Shown: positions 5,290-60,337 of the stretch, in pieces
Numbering within the stretch: the first letter of the stretch is position 1
Layout: each line of letters starts with the position of its first letter
Origin: a virus
Reading direction: 5' to 3' (one strand)
IMG/VR virus record: IMGVR_UViG_3300045125_000165
Length of the DNA: 64,000 nucleotides
The notes under the pieces: model-generated
What the model was told of the DNA's origin: nothing
Database searches by the model: none
The model's input: the letters and a program-made list of their open reading frames with translations, nothing else
Translations under genes and position numbers: made by a program

Positions 5290-6216
5290 ATGTCCAGTGC
5301 AGTCTTAGATCGCATTCTCGCTATCCCTGATTTTGACGATCGCCCTCAGATGGGATTGTCGCGATCGGGACTTGCTGCATTGGTTGAACGTGGCGGTATT
5401 ACCAAGGATGGCACTAAGGCTAAATCATCGGTTTTGGAGCGTGCAGGGATTAAAGGCGATCGCCCATTACCATCCTTGTCAATGGACACAAAAGGATTAA
5501 GCAAGAGAGAAACCAAGAAAAAGACAGGGAAACTGCTTAGAGATATTCGTAACAATAAAGTCGCGATCGCCACGATACAAGGCAAAGGTAAACGGGCTTA
5601 TACTCGCGTAAAAGGAGAGAAAACCCTTCTCCAAAAACGCGCCATGACCGATCGCGACATCGCTAGAAATGCTGGGATTGCAGCAGCAAAACTTGAATCT
5701 CAAGGTCAAATCAATTTGTTTAATCAGCCTAAGCCATCGGCGGCAGCGATCGCGCCTGATACTGCGAAGAAAGTTAAACGTGCGATCGCGGGTGTGAAGG
5801 GCGGTAAGGTTACTAAGGGACAAAAGCCAGTATCAGGGCGTGTGGTTGAGTCTGGTAAAACTGGTAAAGACGGGTTTACTAAGGCGTTTGTATCTATTCC
5901 ATTGCAAAGCCGTAAAAATAAATCTGGGGTAGCGTTAGGAGAACCGATGAAAGGAGAAAAGATTGGCGATTACCTTGTTTCAGGTGATTCTAAATATGGC
6001 TATTCTGTAACTCATATCCCTTCAGGGTTTTCCGTTTTAAATTCCAGCATCTTAAAAGGTGAGCTAGGCAGTGACAATAAAGAAACAGCTAAATTAGCAG
6101 CCAAAAAGCTTAACGAAGCTAAAATTCCATTACCAAAAACTTTCCACAAAATGAAAAACTCTAAGCAGCCTAAAATTCAAGAACTAGGGCGCAAAGTCTT
6201 GACTGCCATCAAATAA
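5290..6216 (+). CDS. highly basic hypothetical protein
   Basis: Intact 308-aa Lys/Arg-rich ORF downstream of TATAAT at 5258. Confidence 0.7.
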   Translation: MSSAVLDRILAIPDFDDRPQMGLSRSGLAALVERGGITKDGTKAKSSVLERAGIKGDRPLPSLSMDTKGLSKRETKKKTGKLLRDIRNNKVAIATIQGKGKRAYTRVKGEKTLLQKRAMTDRDIARNAGIAAAKLESQGQINLFNQPKPSAAAIAPDTAKKVKRAIAGVKGGKVTKGQKPVSGRVVESGKTGKDGFTKAFVSIPLQSRKNKSGVALGEPMKGEKIGDYLVSGDSKYGYSVTHIPSGFSVLNSSILKGELGSDNKETAKLAAKKLNEAKIPLPKTFHKMKNSKQPKIQELGRKVLTAIK

Positions 6217-6257
6217 AAAGCTCCCGATCGCCTTTCAACAACCACAAGGCGATCGCA

Positions 6258-7207
6258 CTAAACATTATCACCATTCTCAACCCAGCCACTAGCAATAAAA
6301 TCGGCGGCTAGGAGTTCTAAAACCTTACCCCATGCCACAGCCTCATTGTCATGGGTCACGCCCATCTGCTCTAAGATTTCTCTAGCTTGTGCGACAGTCT
6401 CAAAAGCATCGCTAGACATCACAACTTTAAACTTCACCCATTGAACGCGGGATGAAACTTGATTAACATCGTCAAGTCCATCTTCACCTTCAACCTCGCC
6501 ATCAAAGCTTCGTATAACTGCCATTGCTTTTTACTTAACTGCACATTTAGCGGATAAGTCACCAACGACTCATCAAACTCTACTTCCTCAATATCCCCAC
6601 TAACTTCCCTGCGATCGCGTTCCTTTAAAACCAAACTCTTAAGGCGATCGCCTATCTCCACATCATCATCAACCACAGGACTAAGCTTAAATCGCGATAG
6701 GAGGCGATCGCGTTCCTCGACAGCATAACCAGTCGCTTCAAGGTTAAGCTCATTCATACGGGCTAAAATCTTGGCAACTTTAGCTTCATCATCCTGACCG
6801 TCAGCAGTATTTAAAGCCATTAATATTATTTTGTGGTCGCGATCGCTTTTATCAATCACCAACACTGGTATCTGAAGCCAATACTTAGGCGCAAATCTAA
6901 CCTTAGCTTTGCTTAATTCATCCTCAGTAAGCTTGCCTTGATGGGCGTTGACATAGCGATCAAACTGCTCTTGAAACCATTCTTTCCCCTTCTGGACTAA
7001 ATACTCGCAAGCCATCACCCGACCATGTCCCCCTGAAAGCAATCCATTTCGCTTGTTAAACGTGGGTAACTTCTGCCAATCGTAATGCAATAGCCTAATT
7101 GCCAATGATGGGATATCGCCTTTATGGATTCTAGGATTATCAGGATCTAGGGCAGTCATTAGATCGGATAGCGATCGCTGCTCTACATTTGGTTTCGGTT
7201 TCGCCAT
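6258..7207 (-). CDS. ParB N-terminal-like protein 1 (frameshifted)
   Basis: DPDNPRIH...LLSGGHGRVMA ParB/Srx-like motif; continues into ORF 6258-6524. Confidence 0.6.
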
Positions 7208-7963: not shown

Positions 7964-9450
7964 ATGTTTGAGCCAGAAAATCAGTTTTACCCAACACCCA
8001 AGGCTGATCGCGGAAAAGATGATCGCGCCATACATTAAAACTTATAGAGAACGTATTCATAATGATATTTTTGCTTCCACTAAATATCTGAGCATTAATT
8101 ACCCTGTATTAGAGCCAAGTGCGGGCAAAGGAGATCTTTTAGATTCAATCAAAGAGATCAATGACTCTAACCGTAGGAATCAGGGAGATTTGTACGCGAT
8201 CGAGCTAGATCCCGAATTGCGGATGATTCTCAACGAAAAAGGCTACACCGTATTGAGCGCTGATTTTCTAGCCTATGACGACCCTCTAGAGTTTGGGTTT
8301 ATCATCATGAACCCGCCTTTCAATGAAGCCGACAAGCATATCACCCATGCTTGGAAATTCCTTAAGGCTGGCGGCGAACTCGTAGCGCTGTGCAACTCTG
8401 AAACTGTGCGGAACCCATGCGACAAAACCCGTCAACTATTGGCTAACTTGATTGATGCTCATGGGACAGTGGAGCATTTAGGATCGTGTTTGCCGATGCC
8501 GATCGCCCCACGAATGTAGAAATTAGCTTGATTAGGTTAACTAAACCAGAGAAAGAACAAGAAGAAATTGAATTTGATGCTAGTGCATTTAAGCGTGACT
8601 ATATCACCGATGAAGAATTTAGCGCTAACCCATTAGCTCACGCTGACTACTTAACCGCCTTGGTTGCTCAGTACAAGAGTGCTGAGAAGTTAATCATTGA
8701 GCGTCAACGTCTTTCCAAACAGTTAGATTTTTATCTAAAGGGCATCAGTGATGACTATAGCTCGGACAAGAAGGCGATCGCCAAAGTACCATTGGAAGAC
8801 GAAATTTATAATCTCAAAGGTAGATTCTGGAACACGGTATTTACTAAGGCTAAGATTGCCTCAAAACTAACAGGCTCATTCAAGTCTGGTTTTGAGGACT
8901 TCCGTAGGCAACAGAAAAATATGGCTTTTTCTGTTGATAATATCAAGAAATGCTACTCATGTTTTTTGCCAACTATGAGCAAATTATACTTAATTGCTTA
9001 GTTGAGATCTTTGACAAACTCACGGCGTTCTGCGAAGAGAATAAAGTCCATGTGGAAGGATGGAAAACCAACAAGGGCTACAAACTCAACAGCAAGGTTA
9101 TCTATCCCTATGGGGTACGTTATGACACCTATGGAAAGTATGGATCGTTTAAATGCTATGGCACAAGCGAAATCCTAACCGATATCGACAAAACCCTTTG
9201 TTGGTTGGAGGGTAAGAAGTATGAAGAGATGGGGAACTGGGAGTGTACCTATTCTGCACTAGATCGTCAATGCGATCGCGCTAATCGTGGTGAAGTCAGC
9301 TATCAAGATAAATTCTACTCGCGATACTTTGAGATGCGTATGTATAAAAAAGGGACTTTACATCTAACTTTCCGAGATAAAAAGCTACTGAATGAGTTCA
9401 ACATCAAGGCGGCGCAAGGTAAAAAATGGATTGGAGGTGAAGGGTATTAA
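7964..9450 (+). CDS. N6-adenine DNA methyltransferase with DUF4942-like C-terminus (split into 3 ORFs)
   Basis: QFYPTP, VLEPSAGKG (motif I), IIMNPPF (motif IV), C-terminal YFEMRMYKKGTLHLTF. Confidence 0.8.
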
Positions 9451-14481: not shown

Positions 14482-16813
14482 GTGCAACAAACCAAACTAG
14501 AACTAAGAGAATATCAAAAAGCCGCCATCCGAGAAATATACTCGCGATGGAAAGAAGGGCATAAGCGGGTAATGTTTCAACTACCAACAGGCGGCGGTAA
14601 GACATTTTTATTTAGCGCGATCGCCAAAGACTTATTGCAAGAACGAATCCTAGTATTAGTCCACAGAGAAGAATTAATCTATCAAGCCCAAGAATCGCTT
14701 GAGACGGCTTGCGGTGTGAGAGTAGGCATAATTAAAGCTGGGGTAGCTCCTGAGCCTCTATGCATGATTCAAGTTGCATCGGTGCAGACACTGGTTAGGC
14801 GATCGCTTCCTCCTGCGGGTTTGGTGATTGTAGATGAATGTTTCCCTGCGGGTACTTTGGTTGATGGGAAACCAATCGAGTCTTATCAAGTTGGCGACTA
14901 TGTGACCTCCTTTGATGAGAACACAGGGGCGATCGCAAAGAAGCGTGTAACCAGACTTTTTAAAAATCCACTAAAAGAACTTGTGAAAGTAGTTTTGTCG
15001 AATGGCGATGAAATTATTTGCACGCCTTCACATCCAATCTTTACTCCTGACGGGTGGAAACCTGCGATGGAGTTAGATCGCTTCGACATGATGTTGTTAA
15101 CTAATCAGGAGAAATCAAATGAAAACCAAAACAGCAACGTGCAAATTTTGCGAGAAAGAATTTGTTCAAGCGATCTACATCGGCAAAAATGGGAGGCAAC
15201 AAATAAGCAACAGGAAGACTTGCAGTACAGAATGCAATCGAGCGATCGCTTCATTAACTGCCGCCAATACGAATCGCAAGTACGCTTCGGAGCGAATGAC
15301 AGTAAACAACCCTATGCAAAAAGCCGAGTCTCGAAACAAGATGAAAGCGTCTCTAAAAGAGATGGGACACAAGCCACCGTCTCAAGGGGGCAATGGCAAG
15401 GGCTTGACAGTTCCGCAGTCGAATCTACTCCATGCTTTAGGGGATGGATGGATCGCGGAATACATTGTCAAGACAAGAGAGACAAATATTCATGGACTGG
15501 AAAAGCTACCCAATCATTACAAAATAGACATTGCAAATCCATCACTGATGATTGCAATAGAAGTAGATGGAGCCAGTCACCAGACACTAGAAAGGCAAGC
15601 TCAGGACAGGAAAAAAGAAACCTTTTTGACTGGATCGGGGTGGAAAGTGTTGAGGTTTACCAACCAAGAAGTACTGAACAATCTGGGTATGTGCCTCCAG
15701 AAAGTTATGTCTATAACCTAGAAGTCGAAGATTGGCACACCTATTTAGTTGATGGCGATCGCGGATCTTATGTAGTTCACAATTGCCATCATGCGACAGC
15801 CGATTCTTATCGCAAGATACTAGACGGCTACCCCGAAGCTTATGTCTTGGGCGTAACCGCTACTCCATGTAGAACGGATGGATCGGGCTTTGATGATTTA
15901 TTTGATGCCTTAGTAAGTGTAATTGGGGTCAAAGACCTCATCGCTCAAGGCAGTCTATGTAAGTACAAACTGTTTGCAGATCCAAACCCAATCAAAACCA
16001 AGGGAATTAAAACGACTGCGGGTGACTACAACCAAAAGGAACTTGCCCAAAGCGTCAATACCAGTATTCTGTCTGCGAACTTAGTCCAGACCTATCGCGA
16101 TCGCTGCCCTGATAAGCGCTGTGTCGTATTCGCGATCAATGTTGAGCATAGTATGGCGATCGCAGAACGCTACAAACAAGCAGGGATACCAGCAGAACAT
16201 TTGGATGGGGAAACACCATCAGGCGATCGCGAAGGCAATATTAGAAAGATTTAGAACTGGCGAAACATTGGTTATAAGCAATGTCGGAATCCTGACCGAA
16301 GGATTTAATCTGCCAAGTATTGAAGCGGTGCAATGCGCCCGACCAACAAAATCATTGAGCCTATGGTTACAGATGGTCGGGCGTGGCTTACGTCCATCGG
16401 CAGGGAAGGAATATGCCTTAATTCTTGATCACACTGAGAACTGGATGAAGCTTGGTATGCCCTGTGCTAAGCATATTTGGACTTTAGAGGGTGTTGAACC
16501 TGAAGAGAAAAAGCCTAGATTCCGCAAAACCAAAGATAACGAGGTTGTTGAGGATGGTTTCTTTGAGATCGAGGAGGGTGATGCCGAACTGGAAGAAATT
16601 GGAGAAGATGATGTCAAGGCGATCGCTATCCAATTAGAAATAGAACAGTTCAATAAGCTGCTGGAAATTGCTGAGCATCGGCAATATAAAAAGGCGTGGG
16701 CAGTCTATAAATTTCTTGAGATTGAACCAAGCTATGAGGCGTTGCTGGTCTGTGCTGGCATCATGGGGTATAAACCTCAGTGGGCTGCCATGAAGTATAA
16801 GGAATATGCTTAG
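14482..16813 (+). CDS. superfamily II DNA helicase (DExH), intein-containing (one frameshift near 16240)
   Basis: Walker A LPTGGGKT; DE|CHH rejoined after splicing; TAT; EGFNLP; QMVGRGLR. Confidence 0.93.
14839..15783 (+). mobile_element. intein (315 aa) in the helicase DExH motif
   Basis: Starts CFPAGT, block B CTPSHP, block F VYNLEVEDWHTYLV, ends VVHN before Cys+1. Confidence 0.95.
15119..15721 (+). CDS. DUF559/Vsr-like endonuclease nested in the +1 frame of the intein
   Basis: AGGAG RBS, CKFC/CSTEC zinc motif, YKIDIA..IAIEVDGASH..DRKKETFL..GWKVLRFTN. Confidence 0.9.
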   Translation: MKTKTATCKFCEKEFVQAIYIGKNGRQQISNRKTCSTECNRAIASLTAANTNRKYASERMTVNNPMQKAESRNKMKASLKEMGHKPPSQGGNGKGLTVPQSNLLHALGDGWIAEYIVKTRETNIHGLEKLPNHYKIDIANPSLMIAIEVDGASHQTLERQAQDRKKETFLTGSGWKVLRFTNQEVLNNLGMCLQKVMSIT

Positions 16814-39804: not shown

Positions 39805-42316
39805 TTAAGGTGCTAATATGTCGAGTTCAGGAGTGGTCAAAGCATCTAGCTCTGCAAGGGTCAATTCATCAATCTTTTTGAGAGGCGTAAACGAAACCTT
39901 AGTACTATCGATCAGTGTACTCACAGCAGCGACGGGGGCAGGGAGTCCACCCAAGAAGCCGACTGAAGTAGATAAGCCAATATCGACATTAATCTTGATG
40001 GTTTCGCTGGTAATAGCAACGGGGATGGGAGCCGCCGCAACCACGATACTGAAAGTAGTTGAATCGGTAGCCAACAAAGCATCAGTTACAGTCACCGTCA
40101 CCGATGTAGTTCCGATCGCTGTTGGTGTTCCCGTCAGCACTCCACCCGAACTCAAAGATAAGCCTAGTGGGTAACGTAGTAGACGAGTAGGTGTATGGCG
40201 ATTGACCTCCTGAGCTATTAAAAGTAATTGGCGCGATCGCCACACCTTGCACAAAATTTTGAGTGGAAGCATCCCCAATATTAAGAGTACTGATTAGCAC
40301 TGGTGGATAGGGTAATGGTGGTGGTGCTATTTCTGGGATAGAACCTGTTTTATTGCCAATAGAATCTTCGACAAATTGCCACGCATCACCATCACGATTA
40401 AGAGATACGCCAAAGCGATCTCTTATGTACCGCCCATTACCTGCATCCACACCTTGGAACGGGGCATAGTTTAGGGTTGTGCCAAAACCACTAGCTAATT
40501 CACGTCCATAGTATCGCTGCCATTTTATTTGCCCTAAATACCTTGCATAGCGATCGCACTCCGCCTTAGTAGTAAGAGTACTTGCGCTCTCAAATTCTTT
40601 ATTCTGCACAAAGGGAGATATCCCTGCATAGCCTGTTTCTACTGTTGCGAGCAAGGGTCGTTGAATAACAGGATAAGGAGGTGGACGGTAGGTGATTTCT
40701 GGTATTGATGTTACGTCTTGCTCGGTGATTGTATTGCTATAGAGATAGCCCTGATTAGTTGTGGATTGCCCCTTGTTTTGAAAGAACTCTTTGCGCTCTG
40801 TCCAATGCCCCTGACATTGCTTTGTGTATGTAGTGATTGTTTTTTCGCTTGGAGCGAAGTTGGCTGAATTGAAGGGAATGTATTCGCAGGGTTCTTTTGA
40901 AGTACACAACCTCTTTTAGTTCAGTGATTTTCTTGATCTCATAGAGCCGTTGCCCTGTCTGGACAATAATATCGTCACGGACAATCTCGACATACTCATA
41001 GGTTGTGGTCGTGCGCTCAGTAATGCGTCGGGAGTCGTTGACATTGACTACGAACCATTCGCTAACACCAAAATATTGCAAACCATCGGGGTATTTTGCC
41101 CAAGGTTCAGATCGGGTGATTACGCGACTTAGAATCTTGGATGGATTTTGAGAATCGATTGGAATATTCTCGTAGGTTGTGATGTCGGTTTCATCTAGTA
41201 AATAACTGGTTTGTGTCCAGTCGTAATAAAAACTAATAGAGTCAGGGAAAGTTCCCTTTGTATAAAGATAGATAAACTCAAAACCACCAGCCTGATTAGG
41301 CTTTGTTGCTTTCCATCCCTTAACTTCAGGAGGATTGCCAGTCAGCTTTCCGTAAGCCCCAATCACGCCGCCAAACAAAACCAGCATAGGATTGCCGATC
41401 AGTTGTTTTGTTAGCTTATAAATATAGCCATCGGTAATAATCTTGTCGCGAGTTTCGATTGATTGCAAAAACAAGTATCTTTGCCCAATCCCTTCAGTGG
41501 TATTTGTTGATAGACCTGCACTGACATAGGTATAAATCTTTTTAGGATAGACTTCGTTACAAGTATCAATATCCTCATGGGTAGCACTGACAGTGACTTG
41601 CTGCTTTACAGGATCTAAGCCTTGCTGCCTTGTAAACGTTAGCAACTCTCTACGCGATTTGCGCCATACGATGTTATTCGCGTTGGCAGGGTATTCTGCC
41701 CATTTGATAGTTTCTTTGTCGCTCCACATCCAATAGCCGCGTTCACCAGCCATTTTTTGAGCTTCTTTGATGTAGCTGCCATTGACCGATCGCGGTACAC
41801 GGTAAATTCCACCAATGCCATAGGGGGAGTCTCGACAGTTACCGTAGTTCCCATGATCGCCGCTTGTTTTTTAATCAAAGCTACAGCTAGATCATTCCAG
41901 TAATTATTTCCACCTGTTTTAAATTCGGGAGTATCAGCGCTAGAGGCATAGCTATCTAAGATACCGATGATATCGGTAATTTCGATTTCAGCCTGTCCGT
42001 TGTCTTGGTTGTAGCGATATCCCGATGGCTTGATCCTGAAGCGTTGCCACCATGTCCCATTAAAATAAACGTCAATTGGTTGCAACCCTGATAGCCATCG
42101 GGAAGGATTGGCTTCATCATCAAAGAATGATCGCGGATGACCAGATCTAGCAGGGAACATCTCAATAGTACCTGTCCAGATTAGTGGTGTAGATGGTTCC
42201 GCGAGAGGGTGGTGAAACGAATAGCCAACTACAGCCTCACTGATATCTTCGCTGCCGATGAAGACTTGAAACTGGGGAACTTTAAGGCTGTATCTGGTCA
42301 TATTACACAGCCTCAA
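39805..42316 (-). CDS. large minor tail / central hub protein with an Ig-like (He_PIG) domain (several frameshifts)
   Basis: Joins 41639-42316, 40755-41753, 40082-40909 and 39805-40278; GLSLSSGGVLTGTPTAIG..VTVTVTD. Confidence 0.6.
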
Positions 42317-53487: not shown

Positions 53488-54003
53488 TTAGGCTTCGTCT
53501 TCTGGTTCAGTCTCAACAGAAGCTTGGAGTTCATCTATGAAGTTATCGCGATCGCTATCGGGTAGCATTGAAGTTAGTCGCCAGACGGCATCTTCGTGGT
53601 ATAGCTGGCGATCGCCCAACATATTACCAGTCGCCAAGTCTTGATATTCTTCTTGAGCCTCAACGCCGCCTTTAATGCATTGCTGAGCCAGATTGAAATT
53701 ATCCGTTGCCAAGTCTTTGATAATCTCAACCTCAGTGGCTCCGATTACACCATCTTCGATATTGCCAAGGTCAAAATATTCTCTAGTTACTGGTACATCG
53801 CCAAATAGGTGCTTAATTCGTTCTCCAATGGTATCGACTGCTTCGACTAGTGCTTTGTACTCAACGTCAAGGACTAATTCGTGCAAGGCGGCAAAGTTAA
53901 TCCCCTTTGTGTTTTGGTGGTACTGATGGGTTTTTAACTGTAATAGCGCTGTATTGGCGGCGATCGGGCGCAAAATTTCAACTACGGGACTTGGTTTAGG
54001 CAT
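53488..54003 (-). CDS. dps: Dps / ferritin-like protein
   Basis: KTHQYHQN..G.NFAALHEL..E....VDTIGERI; ferroxidase His/His/Asp/Glu retained. Confidence 0.85.
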   Translation of the reverse strand: MPKPSPVVEILRPIAANTALLQLKTHQYHQNTKGINFAALHELVLDVEYKALVEAVDTIGERIKHLFGDVPVTREYFDLGNIEDGVIGATEVEIIKDLATDNFNLAQQCIKGGVEAQEEYQDLATGNMLGDRQLYHEDAVWRLTSMLPDSDRDNFIDELQASVETEPEDEA

Positions 54004-54253
54004 TGTTTTGTTTGAATAGAGATTTGTTGAATACTACTGTTATGACTGGTGCTATTACCTCAAACACCTCAATCCGATCTGCTTCTTTATCCGATCGCGT
54101 AGGCTCACCCAAGCCTAGTTTGATTTTTGTGGGGTGTTGGCAGATTCAATACGCGATCACCATTACTGATTTTTAATTGAGGCATTGCTTTGTAAGCGAG
54201 AGGACTGCTTATATTATTACCTGTTCCGGGAAGAGGAACACAAAAATCGATTC

Positions 54254-56818
54254 TCAGATAATGCTAGGTAGCGCACGTTGCGAGTGATGAGCAATCTGCT
54301 TAGGGACAAATATTTGGTAAACCATATAACCAAAGGCATCGGATAGATGCGATCGCGAGACTATCCGTTTTGTCGATACCTTGATCTTTATCCCAAGACA
54401 ACTGCTCCAAATCTTTAGTAAGTTCAGGCACAACATCCATCGCAAGGAAGCAACGATTATTTTTGAATATCAAATTGACTGCATGAGTCCGATGGCGCAC
54501 AGGGGGTTAGCATCGGGGATATGCTTATGGATTGACATACCCAAAGGCTTCAACTCTTCAAAGATGATTTGCCATGCAGACATCTTCGAGACAGCGCTCT
54601 TGGCCCTGCCTGACGCATCACCGTACAGATGGATATCCATATTGTTAGGCTTACCAGCTTTGATAAAATCACGAATATCGACAATCAACTCCCATAAATC
54701 AGCATCAAGCATGAAAAATTCCTTGAATACATGAAGTTCGTTCGCTCTCTTTTGAGCCAATACTGCAACACATGGGGCGGCGTTGAAGTCGAATGCGATG
54801 TGTAATGGGAGATTAGGATCGTAGGCGATCGCCTCTGCATCAATGCCAACAAGCGTGTGATTATTGCGACTAAAGTATTTGTAAATCTTGCCACTTGCCG
54901 CATCAATAAACGCCCCTTCAAGTTCCTGTTGCGCCATTTCATCGGTATAATTTGCCTTTAGACCCGCAACATAGGACTCATCTAAGTGAGTGTTTTCTAA
55001 ACTTAGGAAGTTCAGCATCCAATAGAAGTTTTTAATCTCTTCTGTTCTCGCGGGATCGCCAAATCGGTAATACAGCCAATTAAAGCCATTGGGTGAAGTC
55101 GTGATAATCCCTTGGCATTTTTGACCGTTTGAGCTTCGCATACGACCATCCACAACTTGAAACGCTGATTCTGGTGCATACGCCGCTTCATCTGCCCATA
55201 TCCTTTGAAATTCTGCACCCCGACCTGTTTGCGATTTTCCCAAATATGCAGACATACTGGAAACATGCCAGAGCATTCGGTTTTCGCCTAGATAGAAATA
55301 TCTGTTTTGCGAATTTGCGATCTTTACCGCAGTTAATTCGACAGAGCCATGCCACGGATCGACGGGAATGTTGTATTCAACACAGGCTTTAAATAATCCG
55401 ACTAATGTTGATTTCCATAATTGTTGAAACGAGTTGGAAACTATTAAGCCTTGACAAACATCTGCATACCAAAAAGATTGTAATATCGTCCAGATTGCGC
55501 CACTGTGGGTTTTGCCGCTATTATGATGCCAAATTCCATTAGCTAAATAATGGTTTCCTTTTGGTACATGAAGGTCATAAAAATCATCGTATCTAACATA
55601 TTCGATCGCCTCAATTACATCCCAATATGAGTTAGAATTAGAGTAATTACCACTGTTTACGGATGACCAAATAGATGAGTTTAGATTTACGTTTTTCGAG
55701 GGAAGAGTGGATTCAGATGATGAGTGATCATTCGAGTATTCGCTCAATAGCAAGGTCTTTAGGAGTTCAACATGGGAGTGTATCTCGCGTACTTGAAAAG
55801 CTTGGTCTTCACGTTGCGAAAGCAAACATTGCAGCGAGAAAAGTAGATTACAAAGCGATCGCTGAACATTACTTGAAAACAAAGAACCTTGGTCAAACAG
55901 GGCAGTTTTTTGGGGTAGATGATAGAACCGTTTCAAAGGCTTGCAAAGAAGTTGGGATAACCCCAAAAGATTTTGTTCTTGAGAGCAAAAATCAATTTGG
56001 TTTGCCAATGAACGAGATAATTCAGCGCTACAAAGATGGAGAAACTTGTATAGAGCTTGGTAAAGCTTTTGGTGTTGACGATGAGGTGATTCGCCGTAGG
56101 TTGGTGAGGAGAGGTGTCGAGATGCGAAGTGTCGGCTGCCGCACCCCTGAGCTAAACTCGCAATGGGCTGGCGGCAAAGGGTATCCTGATGAGCATAAAA
56201 AAGTGAGAAAGATTGTTGAATCCATTCTTGGGAGAAAACTGAAATCGGTCGAGGTAATACATCACCACAATGAGAATCCCCTTGACCACGACTTAGACAA
56301 TCTTTGGATATTCCCTTCCCCTTCGCATCACGCTCGTTATCATGGCAAGCTACGAGCGATCCGCAACCAAGGTGTCGAAGTTGATGCCAGCCAGTGGGCG
56401 AAAGCATTTGATGCTGTTCCGTTACGATCACTGATTTCCCGATCGCAAAGTCACACGATAAAGATTTGCTTGCCCTTTGACATACGCAGGAGTAGCCCAA
56501 GTTTCGCCTATCAATGTCTGTACTTTGATAGGCGATCGCGGTAAGGTCTTTTACTGGAATCCCGTTGATTTCAGTCTCACCCGCCAAACATCCAATTCCC
56601 CCAATTGCACTCAACCATCGTGGGGGCGGCATTTCGGGCTTTTCTTCTTGCAGTGGAAACCAAGTAAAGAATTGGGTTTGCCCCCTACCAGTTGGCTTAA
56701 ATCCTTTTTCTGGATCAAATAAGCAATGCTCAAGATTCTCAAGTTTTTGCGCTTGCAAGAGATCTTGCGCGCGATCGCCTCGTATTCGAGTAAAGCCCCC
56801 ATTTGACCATAAACGCAA
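54254..56818 (-). CDS. terminase large subunit, intein-containing (start uncertain; 3' frameshifts)
   Basis: Walker A GGIG|SGKT, Walker B WADEA, ITTSP, EN..L..Y, ELEGAF, DFN, YGDASG, DAFGY. Confidence 0.93.
55520..56590 (-). mobile_element. intein (~357 aa) in TerL Walker A
   Basis: Starts CLAGET, block B VTEQH, block F FYDLHVPKGNHYLANG, ends WHHN before Ser+1. Confidence 0.95.
55717..56544 (+). CDS. HNH endonuclease with HTH repeats, nested antisense inside the TerL intein
   Basis: Several HTH-like segments, NSQWAGG, EHKKV..ILGRKL..EVIHHHNENPLDHDLDNL..H..YH. Confidence 0.88.
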   Translation: MMSDHSSIRSIARSLGVQHGSVSRVLEKLGLHVAKANIAARKVDYKAIAEHYLKTKNLGQTGQFFGVDDRTVSKACKEVGITPKDFVLESKNQFGLPMNEIIQRYKDGETCIELGKAFGVDDEVIRRRLVRRGVEMRSVGCRTPELNSQWAGGKGYPDEHKKVRKIVESILGRKLKSVEVIHHHNENPLDHDLDNLWIFPSPSHHARYHGKLRAIRNQGVEVDASQWAKAFDAVPLRSLISRSQSHTIKICLPFDIRRSSPSFAYQCLYFDRRSR

Positions 56819-56838
56819 AATGCCCTTGTGTGATTACT

Positions 56839-56881
56839 CCCCACTAAAGGCACTCGCGGCGATCGCGACACTTCTATATTA
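56839..56881 (-). promoter_or_regulatory. late-gene leader motif copy E (terminase)
   Basis: TAATAT, TCGCG/CGCGA hairpin, GAGTGCCTTTAGTGGGG. Confidence 0.8.
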
Positions 56882-56884
56882 AAC

Positions 56885-57463
56885 TCATCGGAATAACGAT
56901 CGCGCTTCTTTTTCAAGATGGATTGTATTAAGCTCACTCACCGTTGCATATTTGACGGGATTTCTCCCCGTGATCGCCTGTAGATAAAACTCTGGGTCGT
57001 GAAACAGTACTGGCTTTACAGCGCAGCTTTCGCCATGCACAATCGGGAAAGGAATATCAAGCCATAACTTATCTGCTTGTCTGACGATATCATGGGCAAG
57101 ATGGATTGTTTTATTGGAATTAACATAGCGATCAAAAACAGAGATGTATTTCCAATGCTTTGCTGACAGCTTTATTAATTCCTCTGTGTGCGAATCTTCC
57201 CACTTCTCAGTCCAAATGGTATTAAAGATACACATATCGGCATCGTCGATAACAATGCCATTTAAAGCCCGCCCTCTAAGCCTGTAAGTTTTAAATTCAT
57301 GGAAGCTTAAGTTGATCGGGATATCAATCTGCATGGCTTTGAGTCGGCGAACTTCTTGTTGATGGCAGCAGACAAAAGCATATTGGTTTTCTTGCGCGAT
57401 CGCCAGTAATTCGGTTGTCTTACCTCGACCGCGACCTTTTGCAATTATTTTCATTGGCATCAT
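56885..57463 (-). CDS. P-loop NTPase-like protein
   Basis: GRGRGKT (Walker A) and IVIDD (Walker B). Confidence 0.6.
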   Translation of the reverse strand: MMPMKIIAKGRGRGKTTELLAIAQENQYAFVCCHQQEVRRLKAMQIDIPINLSFHEFKTYRLRGRALNGIVIDDADMCIFNTIWTEKWEDSHTEELIKLSAKHWKYISVFDRYVNSNKTIHLAHDIVRQADKLWLDIPFPIVHGESCAVKPVLFHDPEFYLQAITGRNPVKYATVSELNTIHLEKEARSLFR

Positions 57464-59051: not shown

Positions 59052-60337
59052 ATGGCGAAACTTAAAAATTTGATGGGAGTACAGCAATGCCTGATAACTC
59101 CTGATAAAGATTTAAAAGCAATTGTGGAATATATTTGCTCAGAGTCTAATAAGTTACATAATTGTGCTGTCTACTACGCTCGACAAATCTGGTTTAAGAC
59201 TAGAAAGTTTGTTACAGGTTTTGACCTTGTTAATGAGCTTGGCTCTAATAGACACTTTTCTGCATTGCCATCTGAGGCAGCAGTACAAACCTGTTTGTCG
59301 GTTGGTGAGTCGGTTAAGTCGTTCTCTGAGTTGCTTAAAAAGTTTTTAAAGGTGAATTAGAGCAAAAGCCAAAATTCCCTAAGTATCGAAAACAAGGCTA
59401 TCAATTAGTTGCGTTCCCCAAAAGAGCGCTGAGATTAGTTGACAACACGATCCGTTTTCCGTTAGGTCTACAGGTTAAAGCATGGTTCGGACTTAAAGAG
59501 TTCTTTCTACCAATGCCATCAAATCTTGATTTTGACTTACTCAAAGAAGTTAGAATCTTGCCTAGAAATGGCGCTTTTTACGCTGAGTTTGTCTATCCAA
59601 AAGCCAGTATTAAAGCTGAGTTAGATCCTGATAAATGCTTAGGTATAGATCACGGTTTAAACAATTGGCTAACCTGTGTTAGCAATGTTGGCACAAGCTT
59701 TATTGTTGACGGGTTGCATCTAAAATCACTTAACCAGTGGTACAACAAACGCACATCAGTTTTGATGGATGGCAAGCCTAACGGGTACTGGACTAAACGA
59801 TTAGCCAATATTACTGAGAAGCGTAATCGTCAAATGCGTGACGCTGTAAATAAGGCAGCTCGTATTGTGGTTAACCATTGCCTAGCTAATGGTATTGGCA
59901 CTATCGTTTTTGGCTGGAATAAAGGGCAAAAAGACTCAGCTAACATGGGAGCAAAAACTAATCAAAAGTTTGTGCAAATTCCCACCGCTAGGCTAAAAGA
60001 AAGGATTAAGCAGCTATGCGAAATTTACGGTATTCAGTTTATAGAAACTGAAGAAAGTTACACATCTAAGGCTAGTTTCTTAGACTCAGATATAATCCCT
60101 GTCTACGGTGAAAAACCCGAATTGTGGAAAGAATCTGGTAAGCGTATAAAACGTGGTCTGTATCGTACTGCTAAAAATATTTTGATTAATGCAGACTGTA
60201 ACGGTGCTGCAAATATTGCTAGAAAAGTAGCGGCAACACTAGGCTTAGATCTAGATGGAGTCAGTAGAGGCGCTTTGACTATGCCTCTGAAGTTCAATCT
60301 TTGGACTATTCAGGAATCTCAGTCGCTTCAGCGCTGA
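59052..60337 (+). CDS. tnpB: RNA-guided nuclease TnpB (frameshifted)
   Basis: LGIDHGLNN (RuvC-I), EESYTS, INADCNGAANI (RuvC-III). Confidence 0.93.

What the first reader, a model, noticed from the sequence alone, without database searches (positions are those of the whole stretch)
55520..56590. TerL intein carries its HNH endonuclease as a separate antisense gene
Seen: the minus-strand intein frame stays open across the whole intein. Its middle is low-information sequence with no LAGLIDADG or HNH motif. The plus strand holds an ORF (ATG 55717) with HTH segments and an HNH motif (HHHNENPLDHDLDNL..H..H). About 800 nt are therefore coding on both strands, and the intein sits in Walker A (GGIG|SGKT). 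Knowledge: canonical inteins carry in-frame endonucleases. As I recall, alternate-frame ones were reported in actinobacteriophages; an antisense one is more unusual. Inference: a free-standing HNH gene invaded a mini-intein in inverted orientation and supplies homing. It needs its own promoter and would make antisense RNA to terL.
Basis: partly seen in the sequence, partly recalled or inferred. Interest (0 to 1): 0.88.

Follow-up and report, generated by a model that had tools for sequence, protein, structure and literature searches.

The report
Terminase intein with antisense HNH gene
A phage DNA-packaging gene carries a self-splicing protein insert (an intein) whose mobility nuclease is a separate, conserved gene on the opposite DNA strand; the layout is real and common in environmental phages, but it is a new nuclease type within an already described class of odd inteins.

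Summary
The minus-strand terL carries a 357-codon class-1 intein (55520-56590) in Walker A (GGIG|SGKT). A plus-strand ORF (55675-56544) inside it encodes three helix-turn-helix modules and an HNH nuclease. The terL frame has no stops across that ORF, against 12-16 expected (0 of 20,000 permutations).

The layout recurs in at least 30 diverged phage contigs, always in the same frame relation. Substitution patterns show selection on the HNH protein in the insert. In a 46-codon overlap that includes block B, selection is stronger on the intein's splicing (Hint) domain.

Nearly identical terL genes carry a mini-intein or no intein. The element is 87-94% identical between two phages whose flanking terL is only 63-72% identical. 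This indicates spread between diverged terL genes, as homing would give.

The window's own copy differs from relatives by six small indels, probably assembly errors. They break the canonical frames.

Antisense LAGLIDADG and Vsr-like nucleases in inteins are published. I found no paper on an antisense HNH. This scan has noted the same layout before on other DNA (41 notes, at least 32 genomes), but not this lineage. Expression, splicing and cleavage are untested.

The parts
54254..56810 (-). Full extent of terL as defined by relatives (canonical ATG 56808-56810 to TGA near 54254). In the window it is split over three frames by indels.
   Evidence: Alignments to L011, L029, L003 and L002. TerL families: Terminase_6N at 2.9e-11 and phrog_2 at 1e-24.
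54470..56818 (-). terL ORF as written in the window (782 aa, nominal TTG start), including the intein.
55520..56590 (-). Class-1 intein, 357 aa, Cys1 ... His-Asn | Ser+1, inserted in Walker A at GGIG|SGKT.
   Evidence: One search gives the coordinates. Pfam Intein_splicing is below its cut-off (32.5 bits against 35.8; E 8.9e-8). Block alignment.
56336..56590 (-). Hint N-terminal splicing domain (intein residues 1-85; block A CLAGE, block B T-E-Q-H). Residues ~18-51 are out of register in the window.
   Evidence: The AF2 model of relative P0025 has pLDDT 78-92 for residues 1-85. Foldseek matches the Ssp DnaB mini-intein at 5.5e-6.
55634..56335 (-). Intein-frame insert, about 234 codons: stop-free, poorly conserved and not confidently folded. 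It is the reverse strand of the HNH gene.
   Evidence: Intein-frame aa identity is 10-41% here, against 29-63% for the HNH frame. pLDDT 30-55. The stretch is absent from the mini-inteins P0006 and P0017.
55520..55633 (-). Hint C-terminal splicing domain (blocks F and G: YWDVIEAIEYVRYDDFYDLHVP..NHYLANGIWHHN).
   Evidence: pLDDT 78-90.
55675..56544 (+). HTH-HNH endonuclease ORF as written (289 aa). In relatives, and if the C-run at 56438-56440 has four Cs, it ends at TGA 56478-56480 (~268 aa).
   Evidence: AF2 mean pLDDT 76.7.
55699..56109 (+). Three helix-turn-helix DNA-binding modules of the HNH protein (residues 9-42, 59-92 and 112-145).
   Evidence: Pfam HTH_28, HTH_38 and HTH_23. Three-helix units in the model. 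VIA-align matches to the GcrA DNA-binding domain and a phage repressor, Z 6.7-6.9.
56185..56367 (+). HNH (beta-beta-alpha-metal) nuclease core: VIHHHNENPLDHDLDNLWIFP..H..YHGKL.
   Evidence: Invariant H196 H197 H198, N209, H219 and H223 across 8 members. HNH_3 in 8 of 8 members. Strands 194-197 and 210-213 followed by helix 216-231.
56341..56480 (.). True dual-coding stretch. The HNH C-terminal ~46 codons lie opposite Hint N-domain residues 37-84, including block B.
   Evidence: Codon map in L010. Both frames are conserved here, the intein frame more so (44-84% against 33-69%).
55633..55638 (+). TAGAAT, a candidate -10 element for the HNH gene, 37 nt upstream of ATG 55675.
   Evidence: A TAnnAT (TAGAAT, TATCAT or TACAAT) sits at the same place just after CCCAATA in six other loci; L001 has only TATGAT in a shifted position. 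It fell below the consensus promoter scan. Inference only.
56438..56440 (.). C-run one base shorter than in relatives (frameshift 1 of the intein/HNH pair).
   Evidence: An RNA-library contig from run X21 is otherwise 100% identical over 189 nt and has the extra C.
56539..56540 (.). One extra base next to the HIP1 site at 56532-56539. It restores the frame 33 codons later.
   Evidence: X1 contig.
56766..56800 (.). Two indels at the terL 5' end: an extra CG at 56766-56767 and a G-run (C-run on the plus strand) at 56796-56800 that is one base short. They put the canonical ATG out of frame.
54359..54505 (.). Two indels at the terL 3' end (-1 near 54504, +1 near 54360). The first leads to a stop at 54470.

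Best explanation
This is a composite selfish element in the ATP-binding loop of a cyanophage terminase large subunit. It consists of a class-1 intein and a separate homing-endonuclease gene on the opposite strand.

Proposed mechanism:
1. terL mRNA is translated straight through the intein. That includes about 234 codons that are only the stop-free reverse complement of the nuclease gene and probably form a disordered linker.
2. The N- and C-terminal Hint halves fold together, splice the intein out, and rebuild GGIG-SGKT.
3. From the other strand, probably from a -10-like element at the edge of block F, a ~268-aa protein is made. It has three helix-turn-helix modules and an HNH nuclease.
4. This protein cuts or nicks intein-free terL alleles of co-infecting phages near the GGIG|SGKT codons. 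Recombinational repair then copies the whole element in.

Shown here: the anatomy, protein-level selection on the HNH frame, stop avoidance in the terL frame, and spread of the element between diverged terL genes. Inferred: transcription of the HNH gene, splicing, cleavage and the target site.

The copy in this window is probably intact in nature. As written it carries six small indels.
For: - Anatomy.
- Stop avoidance: 0 stops against 12-16 expected in the window. In 27 further loci, 0 stops against 2.3-13 expected, always in the same antisense frame (codon position 1 opposite position 1). The other two antisense frames hold 2-23 stops.
- Selection on the HNH protein: in 15 pairwise comparisons substitutions are most frequent at codon position 3 (1 > 2 as well in 14 of the 15), and HNH aa identity exceeds intein-frame identity in every pair.
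- Dominance switches in the 46-codon overlap with the Hint domain.
- Catalytic His, Asn and His residues are invariant, and HNH_3 matches 8 of 8 members.
- The Hint halves fold confidently and match solved mini-inteins, while the insert does not fold.
- Prevalence: of 28 IMG/VR loci with this intein, 22 carry the antisense HNH ORF and the other 6 are mini-inteins.
- Sporadic distribution: the window's C-extein is 99.1% identical to P0006 (mini-intein) and 89.7% to P0007 (no intein). L003 against intein-free P0009 is 96.9%. P0019 against mini-intein P0017 is 98.8%.
- Transfer: between the window and L003 the element is 87-94% nt identical, while the N- and C-exteins are 63% and 72%.
- The same intein with the same HNH sits at other sites or in other TerL families (L013, L022; Walker A of many TerL types).
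- No group I intron or any other Rfam family lies in the region.
Against: - No strand-resolved RNA, protein, splicing or cleavage data exist. The metatranscriptome contigs that match give no strand and could derive from DNA.
- The consensus scan found no plus-strand promoter, and the window's HNH start has no clear Shine-Dalgarno sequence.
- Pfam HNH_3 is below its gathering score in the window's protein (18.4 against 24.8 bits).
- Fold searches of the HNH model returned only HTH matches, and the PDB profile search found no HNH.
- As written, the window's copy has a scrambled Hint N-domain segment and a truncated TerL, so this copy could be dead.
- The identity step at the extein/intein borders could also arise from recombination without nuclease-driven homing.
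Confidence: 0.8

Rival explanations
1. The copy in this window is a dead relic. Real mutations, not assembly errors, have frameshifted the terL 5' end, the Hint N-domain, the HNH 3' end and the terL 3' end. On this reading the phage or prophage is decaying, and neither splicing nor homing happens here. This concerns only the state of this copy, not the family.
For: - There are six indels relative to close relatives in 2.6 kb.
- As written, the canonical ATG is out of frame and TerL stops about 70 aa early.
- The window also holds an IS605-type transposase and several series of overlapping same-strand ORFs.
Against: - The C-extein is 99.1% aa identical to P0006 at only ~88% nt identity, so purifying selection acted until very recently.
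- An otherwise identical contig in run X21 has the missing C at 56438-56440.
- Two of the indels are homopolymer-length changes (the other four are not), and four of the six lie within 5 nt of a (C)GATCG(C)/HIP1 site. Both patterns are typical of systematic base-calling errors.
- The indels have not produced a stop in the intein frame.
Confidence: 0.25
2. The antisense HNH protein is not a homing enzyme but a packaging accessory. It would resemble the HNH proteins encoded next to terminase genes that help cos cleavage, and it merely happens to be lodged in the terL intein.
For: HNH genes next to terminase genes are common in phages (abstract of PMC3592412, listed). The element is found almost only in terminase genes.
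Against: - TerL proteins 97-99% identical to HNH-carrying ones have no HNH, only a mini-intein or no intein. The HNH is therefore dispensable for that terminase.
- The element's sequence identity is decoupled from that of its host gene, as expected of a selfish element.
- The three sequence-reading HTH modules fit a site-specific homing enzyme.
- I did not check whether those relatives carry another HNH elsewhere in their genomes.
Confidence: 0.06
3. The plus-strand ORF is not expressed. It is a fossil of an old inversion of an in-frame HNH domain, and both frames stay open only through shared ancestry.
For: There is no direct expression evidence and no consensus promoter. All loci share one frame relation, so they are not independent origins.
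Against: - At 29-63% aa identity the ORF is still intact in about 30 loci.
- Substitutions follow the 3 > 1 > 2 codon-position pattern of a translated gene in 14 of 15 pairs.
- The catalytic residues are invariant.
- A fossil would have lost its frame, because only the terL frame would be under selection.
Confidence: 0.04

Closest known systems
Inteins with an antisense LAGLIDADG endonuclease: Synechocystis DnaX, Chloroflexus SpoVR-like and some actinobacteriophage inteins (Gorbalenya 1998; Gogarten 2002; both as cited in bioRxiv 10.1101/2025.01.02.630785)
   Same: The endonuclease ORF lies on the strand opposite the intein, between the splicing blocks. The intein frame stays open but encodes nothing recognisable.
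   Different: The nuclease here is HTH-HNH, not LAGLIDADG. The host gene is a cyanophage-type TerL. The HNH 3' end also overlaps block B of the Hint domain.
[quoted passage not shown]
   Same: A non-canonical, separately translated nuclease gene nested in an intein, often in TerL. The proposed origin is invasion of an intein by a free-standing nuclease gene.
   Different: That survey lists HNH only as an in-frame domain. An antisense HNH is not among its four architectures. The family here is large, with 22 of 28 IMG/VR relatives carrying the ORF, whereas the survey calls such cases rare.
[quoted passage not shown]
   Same: An HNH nuclease associated with an intein, also in cyanophages.
   Different: In those the HNH is part of the intein polypeptide. 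Here it is a separate protein read from the other strand.
Terminase P-loop inteins of mycobacteriophages (Kelley et al. 2016, PMC5050341)
   Same: Inteins inserted in the Walker A motif of TerL, sporadically distributed and horizontally spread.
   Different: Those sit between or next to the Lys and Thr of GK[ST], and no antisense HNH is mentioned in the passages that my term search of that paper returned. This one sits one step earlier, at G|[STC]GK[ST].
Fractured genes: split inteins with a free-standing endonuclease gene between the halves (Dassa et al. 2009, PMC2677866, listed)
   Same: A free-standing nuclease gene sits within an intein locus and is translated separately.
   Different: There the host gene and the intein are split into two ORFs. 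Here the intein stays contiguous because the reverse strand of the nuclease gene is kept stop-free.

Membership tests
Class-1 intein (Hint domain) | N-terminal Cys/Ser (block A) and block B T-x-x-H | tested here: met
   Cys1 in CLAGETE and VTEQH in the window; both are invariant in 9 aligned inteins.
Class-1 intein (Hint domain) | C-terminal His-Asn followed by a Ser/Thr/Cys +1 nucleophile (blocks F and G) | tested here: met
   ...NHYLANGIWHHN|SGKT. The same ending occurs in 28 IMG/VR loci with S, T or C at +1.
Class-1 intein (Hint domain) | Hint fold | tested here: met
   AF2 model of relative P0025: residues 1-85 and 321-357 have pLDDT 78-92. Foldseek matches Ssp DnaB, Npu DnaB and Mtu RecA mini-inteins at E 5e-6 to 1e-4, probability 1.00. 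The window's own copy was not modelled because of its frame-shifted segment.
Class-1 intein (Hint domain) | Protein splicing activity | not testable with these tools
   Needs expression of a precursor.
HNH (beta-beta-alpha-metal) endonuclease | Match to HNH family profiles | tested here: inconclusive
   PHROG HNH-endonuclease families match at 1e-9 to 1e-4. Pfam HNH_3 matches all 8 family members at E <= 0.01, best 1.4e-5, but the window's protein scores 18.4 bits, below the 24.8-bit cut-off. No HNH was found in the PDB by sequence profile.
HNH (beta-beta-alpha-metal) endonuclease | Conserved His ... Asn ... His catalytic and metal-binding residues on a beta-beta-alpha unit | tested here: met
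   H196-H198, N209, H219 and H223 are invariant. Two strands followed by a helix at residues 194-231 in the model.
HNH (beta-beta-alpha-metal) endonuclease | Structural match to a solved HNH | tested here: inconclusive
   Foldseek and VIA-align on the whole model returned only HTH matches. The HNH part was barely tested.
Homing (mobile) intein | Sporadic presence or absence among closely related host genes | tested here: met
   Exteins 97-99% identical carry the HNH-intein, a mini-intein or no intein.
Homing (mobile) intein | Element phylogeny decoupled from host-gene phylogeny | tested here: met
   Element 87-94% nt identical against exteins 63-72% between the window and L003. The same element occurs in unrelated TerL families and at other sites.
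Homing (mobile) intein | The endonuclease cleaves the intein-free allele at or near the insertion site | not testable with these tools
   Candidate empty sites are in L029 and L027.
Non-canonical inteins with an antisense endonuclease gene | Intact nuclease ORF on the opposite strand between the splicing blocks, with the intein frame kept open | tested here: met
Non-canonical inteins with an antisense endonuclease gene | Nuclease type as published (LAGLIDADG or Vsr-like) | tested here: not met
   The nuclease is HTH-HNH. The published survey lists HNH only as in-frame.
Group I intron with a nested endonuclease gene (alternative) | Ribozyme core detectable and host ORF interrupted | tested here: not met
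   No Rfam match at E <= 1 in 54200-57200. The host frame is continuous.

The most novel reading that the evidence does not exclude
The Hint domain and the HNH gene are physically interlocked. About 140 nt encode block B on one strand and the HNH C-terminus on the other. They arose as a pair once, since every locus uses the same frame relation. The pair then radiated as a unit across the Walker A loops of many unrelated terminase families. Beyond homing, transcription of the HNH gene runs head-on into terL. It would then act as a built-in antisense regulator that times terminase production or restricts HNH expression to a window of the infection cycle.
Probability: 0.2. Interest if true: 0.75.

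Novelty: new variant of a known kind. Interest (0 to 1): 0.58.

Why it matters
- **Annotation.** Gene finders call only the long terL ORF, so the nuclease gene is missing from annotation. In L009 and L010 only terL was called. Only 5 clusters of this HNH were found among 5.8 billion proteins, although 22 of 28 related IMG/VR loci encode it. A whole class of homing endonucleases with long, modular HTH reading heads is therefore under-counted.
- **Intein evolution.** The family gives a large natural sample of one route by which inteins could acquire nucleases: a free-standing gene nested in a splicing element, as the published "splicing first" model proposes. Published cases of this route were few.
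- **Overlapping genes.** It is a clean system for studying selection on antisense overlapping genes. In one segment only "no stops" is selected on one strand. In a second segment both strands encode conserved protein.
- **Applications.** The nucleases target the most conserved codons of phage terminases. They could be a source of new site-specific nicking or cutting enzymes.

Tried and rejected
- **Inversion hypothesis.** I first suspected that the odd Hint N-domain segment in the window was an inversion between two HIP1-like palindromes. BLAST and alignment showed colinearity with a -1/+1 indel pair instead.
- **Own genome.** None is held for this window.
- **GTDB genome contigs.** The scan with the HNH profile found no relative, so no host assignment came from a prophage copy.
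- **Metagenome contigs.** Only 4 weak partial hits.
- **Deposited phage genomes.** There is no close relative of the HNH (3 weak Staphylococcus-phage hits). TerL relatives are at most 26% identical.
- **Fold searches of the HNH model.** Foldseek against the PDB gave nothing at E <= 0.001. VIA-align gave only HTH domains. The PDB sequence-profile search also gave only HTH matches. The fold of the HNH core was therefore not independently confirmed.
- **Promoter and terminator scan.** No plus-strand sigma-70 consensus was found, and terminator-like sites were at chance level.
- **Second read-laying.** Runs X4-X7 had no coverage of the indel sites. Five of the six indels therefore remain unchecked in the same strain.
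- **Literature.** Searches for an antisense, opposite-strand or complementary-strand HNH in inteins found no description. The cyanophage Mic1 and CL131 papers describe in-frame nuclease domains only.
- **Synteny with L027.** It was too patchy to judge whether other genes of the window are also frameshifted.
- **Not run.** The complex-prediction tool and the 1.84-billion-protein search, because neither result would change the verdict.
Full report
**1. What is in the window**

The minus strand holds a 782-codon ORF (54470-56818). It matches terminase large-subunit families: Terminase_6N at 2.9e-11 and phrog_2 at 1e-24. It also matches the intein splicing domain.

The intein runs from Cys1 (CLAGETEING...) to ...NHYLANGIWHHN and is followed by Ser. 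It splits the Walker A motif as GGIG|SGKT.

On the plus strand an ORF runs from ATG 55675 to 56544 (289 aa), wholly inside the intein. It matches PHROG HNH-endonuclease families (phrog_7545 at 1e-9, and four more at 4e-8 to 8e-5). It also matches several helix-turn-helix families and, weakly, Pfam HNH_3. Apart from the splicing-domain and terminase matches, the intein frame has no domain hit.

The window has 190 copies of GCGATCGC (HIP1) against 0.72 expected. From my own knowledge this is the signature of cyanobacterial DNA and of their phages. The neighbouring genes give phage-type or no matches.

**2. Is the double open frame more than chance?**

Yes. I kept the HNH protein fixed and permuted its synonymous codons. 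The terL frame then acquired a mean of 12.2 stops. Shuffling codon order gave 16.3, and resampling codons from the window's own usage gave 13.2. None of 20,000 trials of any kind was stop-free. The other two antisense frames of the real sequence hold 10 and 17 stops.

**3. Relatives**

The HNH protein has few called homologues: 5 clusters at 44-89% identity. Gene finders call only the long terL ORF in such loci.

Fetching the contigs showed the same layout in L001-L010 and L012. Each has TerL, an intein at GG[IV]G|SGK[ST], an intact antisense HTH-HNH ORF, and an open terL frame.

A scan of IMG/VR with the intein alignment gave 28 loci. Of these, 22 have an antisense ORF that matches the HNH profile (E 4e-127 to 2e-7). 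The six without one are mini-inteins of at most 522 nt.

In all 28 loci tested (the window, L001/L003/L008/L009/L010, L013, L022 and 20 of the IMG/VR loci), the open antisense frame is the same one: codon position 1 opposite position 1. It has 0 stops against 2.3-13 expected.

The insertion site is nearly always G|[STC]GK[ST] of the Walker A motif, in very different terminases. L013 and L022 carry the element at other sites in other TerL types. In L022 the HNH domain comes first in the protein.

Short free-standing HTH-HNH genes related to the C-terminal half exist in other phages (L014-L021).

**4. Which strand is under selection?**

In 15 pairwise comparisons of six loci, substitutions were most frequent at HNH codon position 3 in every pair, and position 1 exceeded position 2 in 14 of the 15. 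HNH amino-acid identity (41-87%) exceeded the identity of the intein frame read from the same DNA (23-82%) in every pair.

Splitting the ORF shows a switch:

| Stretch | HNH-frame identity | Intein-frame identity |
|---|---|---|
| First ~220 HNH codons (the insert) | 29-63% | 10-41% |
| Last ~46 HNH codons | 33-69% | 44-84% |

The last ~46 codons lie opposite Hint (splicing-domain) residues 37-84, including block B.

So most of the intein's middle is a passenger frame selected only to lack stops. About 140 nt (window 56341-56480) encode conserved protein on both strands.

Structure prediction agrees:
- The HNH protein folds as three three-helix modules plus a beta-beta-alpha unit (mean pLDDT 76.7).
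- In the intein of relative P0025, residues 1-85 and 321-357 are confident (pLDDT 78-92) and match solved mini-inteins (Ssp DnaB at 5.5e-6).
- Residues 86-320 of that intein have pLDDT 30-55.

The catalytic His triplet, Asn and His residues are invariant. HNH_3 matches all eight aligned members.

**5. Evidence for mobility**

TerL relatives include intein-free alleles (P0007, P0009: GGIGSGKT) and mini-intein alleles at the same site (P0006, P0017).

C-extein identities:

| Pair | Identity |
|---|---|
| Window vs P0006 (mini-intein) | 99.1% |
| Window vs P0007 (no intein) | 89.7% |
| L003 (HNH-intein) vs P0009 (no intein) | 96.9% |
| P0019 (HNH-intein) vs P0017 (mini-intein) | 98.8% |

The two HNH-intein carriers, the window and L003, are only 75% identical in the C-extein.

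At the DNA level, window against L003:

| Segment | nt identity |
|---|---|
| N-extein | 63% |
| Hint N-domain | 93% |
| Insert / HNH | 87% |
| Hint C-domain | 94% |
| C-extein | 72% |

The sharp step at both intein borders is what transfer of the element between diverged terL genes would leave. No ribozyme or other Rfam family lies in the region.

**6. Expression signals**

The consensus scan found no sigma-70 promoter on the plus strand. In the window and six other loci a TAnnAT hexamer (TAGAAT, TATCAT or TACAAT) sits at the same position, directly after the reverse complement of the block-F YWD codons. L001 has only TATGAT in a shifted position. The window's copy is 55633-55638, 37 nt before the ATG. 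L013 also has an AGGAGG before its start.

The intein-frame residues opposite this hexamer (SNSNS) are conserved only in the large inteins, not in mini-inteins. This fits a signal on the plus strand. It remains an inference.

Two metatranscriptome runs hold contigs identical to the window at 54969-55338, 55520-55773 and 56352-56540. Contigs give no strand and could derive from DNA.

**7. State of the window's own copy**

Against close relatives the window has six indels:
- a G-run one base short at 56796-56800, and an extra CG at 56766-56767;
- an extra base at 56539-56540, and a C-run one base short at 56438-56440;
- one base missing near 54504, and one extra near 54360.

Their effects as written:
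- The canonical ATG (56810) is out of frame with the body.
- 33 codons of the Hint N-domain read TAIAYQSTDIDRR... instead of TRSPIKVQTLIGE...
- The HNH ORF overruns its normal TGA (56478-56480).
- TerL stops at 54470. The rest of its C-terminus is visible in two other frames.

I think these are mostly assembly errors, for three reasons:
- The C-extein is 99% identical in protein to P0006 at only ~88% DNA identity, so purifying selection acted until very recently.
- A contig otherwise identical over 189 nt has the missing C.
- Two indels are homopolymer-length changes, and four of the six lie within 5 nt of a (C)GATCG(C)/HIP1 site.

I could not check the other five sites in the same strain. A recently decayed copy remains possible; I put it at about 0.25.

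**8. Comparison with what is known**

Inteins with antisense LAGLIDADG genes (Synechocystis DnaX and others) have been known since 1998. [quoted passage not shown] It lists HNH only as an in-frame domain and calls these architectures rare (bioRxiv 10.1101/2025.01.02.630785).

TerL P-loop inteins are well described in mycobacteriophages, and the passages of that paper returned by my term search do not mention an antisense HNH (PMC5050341). Six literature searches found no description of an antisense HNH in an intein.

The present case is therefore a new nuclease type within a known class. It adds three points: it is the rule rather than the exception for the large inteins of this family, the frame relation is invariant, and the nuclease gene overlaps block B.

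Earlier notes of this scan report the same layout on other DNA: 41 notes in at least 32 genomes. None is a sequence look-alike of this locus. I treated these notes as leads only.

**9. Verdict**

The best explanation is a composite homing element: a class-1 intein plus an antisense HTH-HNH gene. My confidence is 0.8 for the anatomy and the selection on it. It is lower for the untested steps of transcription, splicing and cleavage.

Noticed in passing
window 14482-16254 (+), nested ORF 15119-15721 (+): A second non-canonical intein in the same phage. A ResIII/DEAD helicase ORF carries an intein (Intein_splicing 45 bits, PT-HINT 52 bits). A same-strand, out-of-frame ORF inside it matches DUF559/Vsr-like nuclease (46 bits). 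Both inteins of this phage thus keep their nuclease out of the intein frame.
   Followed up: partly
window 54359-54361, 56438-56440, 56539-56540, 56766-56767: Four of the six terL indels lie within 5 nt of a (C)GATCG(C)/HIP1 site. With one HIP1 per ~340 nt this is unlikely by chance. Possible causes are base-calling errors at methylated motifs or a HIP1-linked mutation process. Several other same-strand overlapping ORF series in the window (7968-9450, 40082-42316) may be split genes of the same kind.
   Followed up: partly
whole window: GCGATCGC (HIP1) occurs 190 times against 0.72 expected, about one per 340 nt. This points to a HIP1-rich cyanobacterial host, yet no relative was found in 185,579 GTDB species genomes.
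   Followed up: partly
L027 8691-9827, L028 135-1271, L009 13106-13834; window 59513-60337: IS605-family OrfB/TnpB (Cas12f-like) genes sit right next to terL in the intein-free relatives L027 and L028 and near terL in L009. The window has a transposase-like ORF (phrog_506) 2.7 kb from terL. Mobile elements of several kinds gather around the terminase gene in this phage group.
   Followed up: no
L045 2-6040 and L048 2-4768 (IMG/VR loci): The same intein with an antisense HNH ORF sits in very long ORFs (at least 2013 and 1589 aa, open-ended) at ...GDG|TGVGKG and ...NDG|SEAF. These may not be terminases, which would mean the element has jumped to other P-loop proteins.
   Followed up: no
L022 4646-7264 (-) / 5809-6690 (+): A high-GC terminase-like ORF has an intein that ends in ...LIQAQ|T instead of HN. 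Its antisense ORF has the HNH domain at the N-terminus and the HTH modules behind it, the reverse of the domain order in the window's family.
   Followed up: partly
window 53488-54003 (-): A Dps/ferritin-like DNA-binding protein gene (phrog_3636, 7.5e-16) lies directly downstream of terL. This is an unusual neighbour for a packaging gene.
   Followed up: no
Read laying record 10 of run X2, window 55494-55549: An 84-nt RNA-library contig maps partly to the minus and partly to the plus strand of the same 28-56 nt at the intein C-terminus (snap-back form). It is probably a library artefact, but it lies where sense and antisense transcripts would overlap.
   Followed up: no
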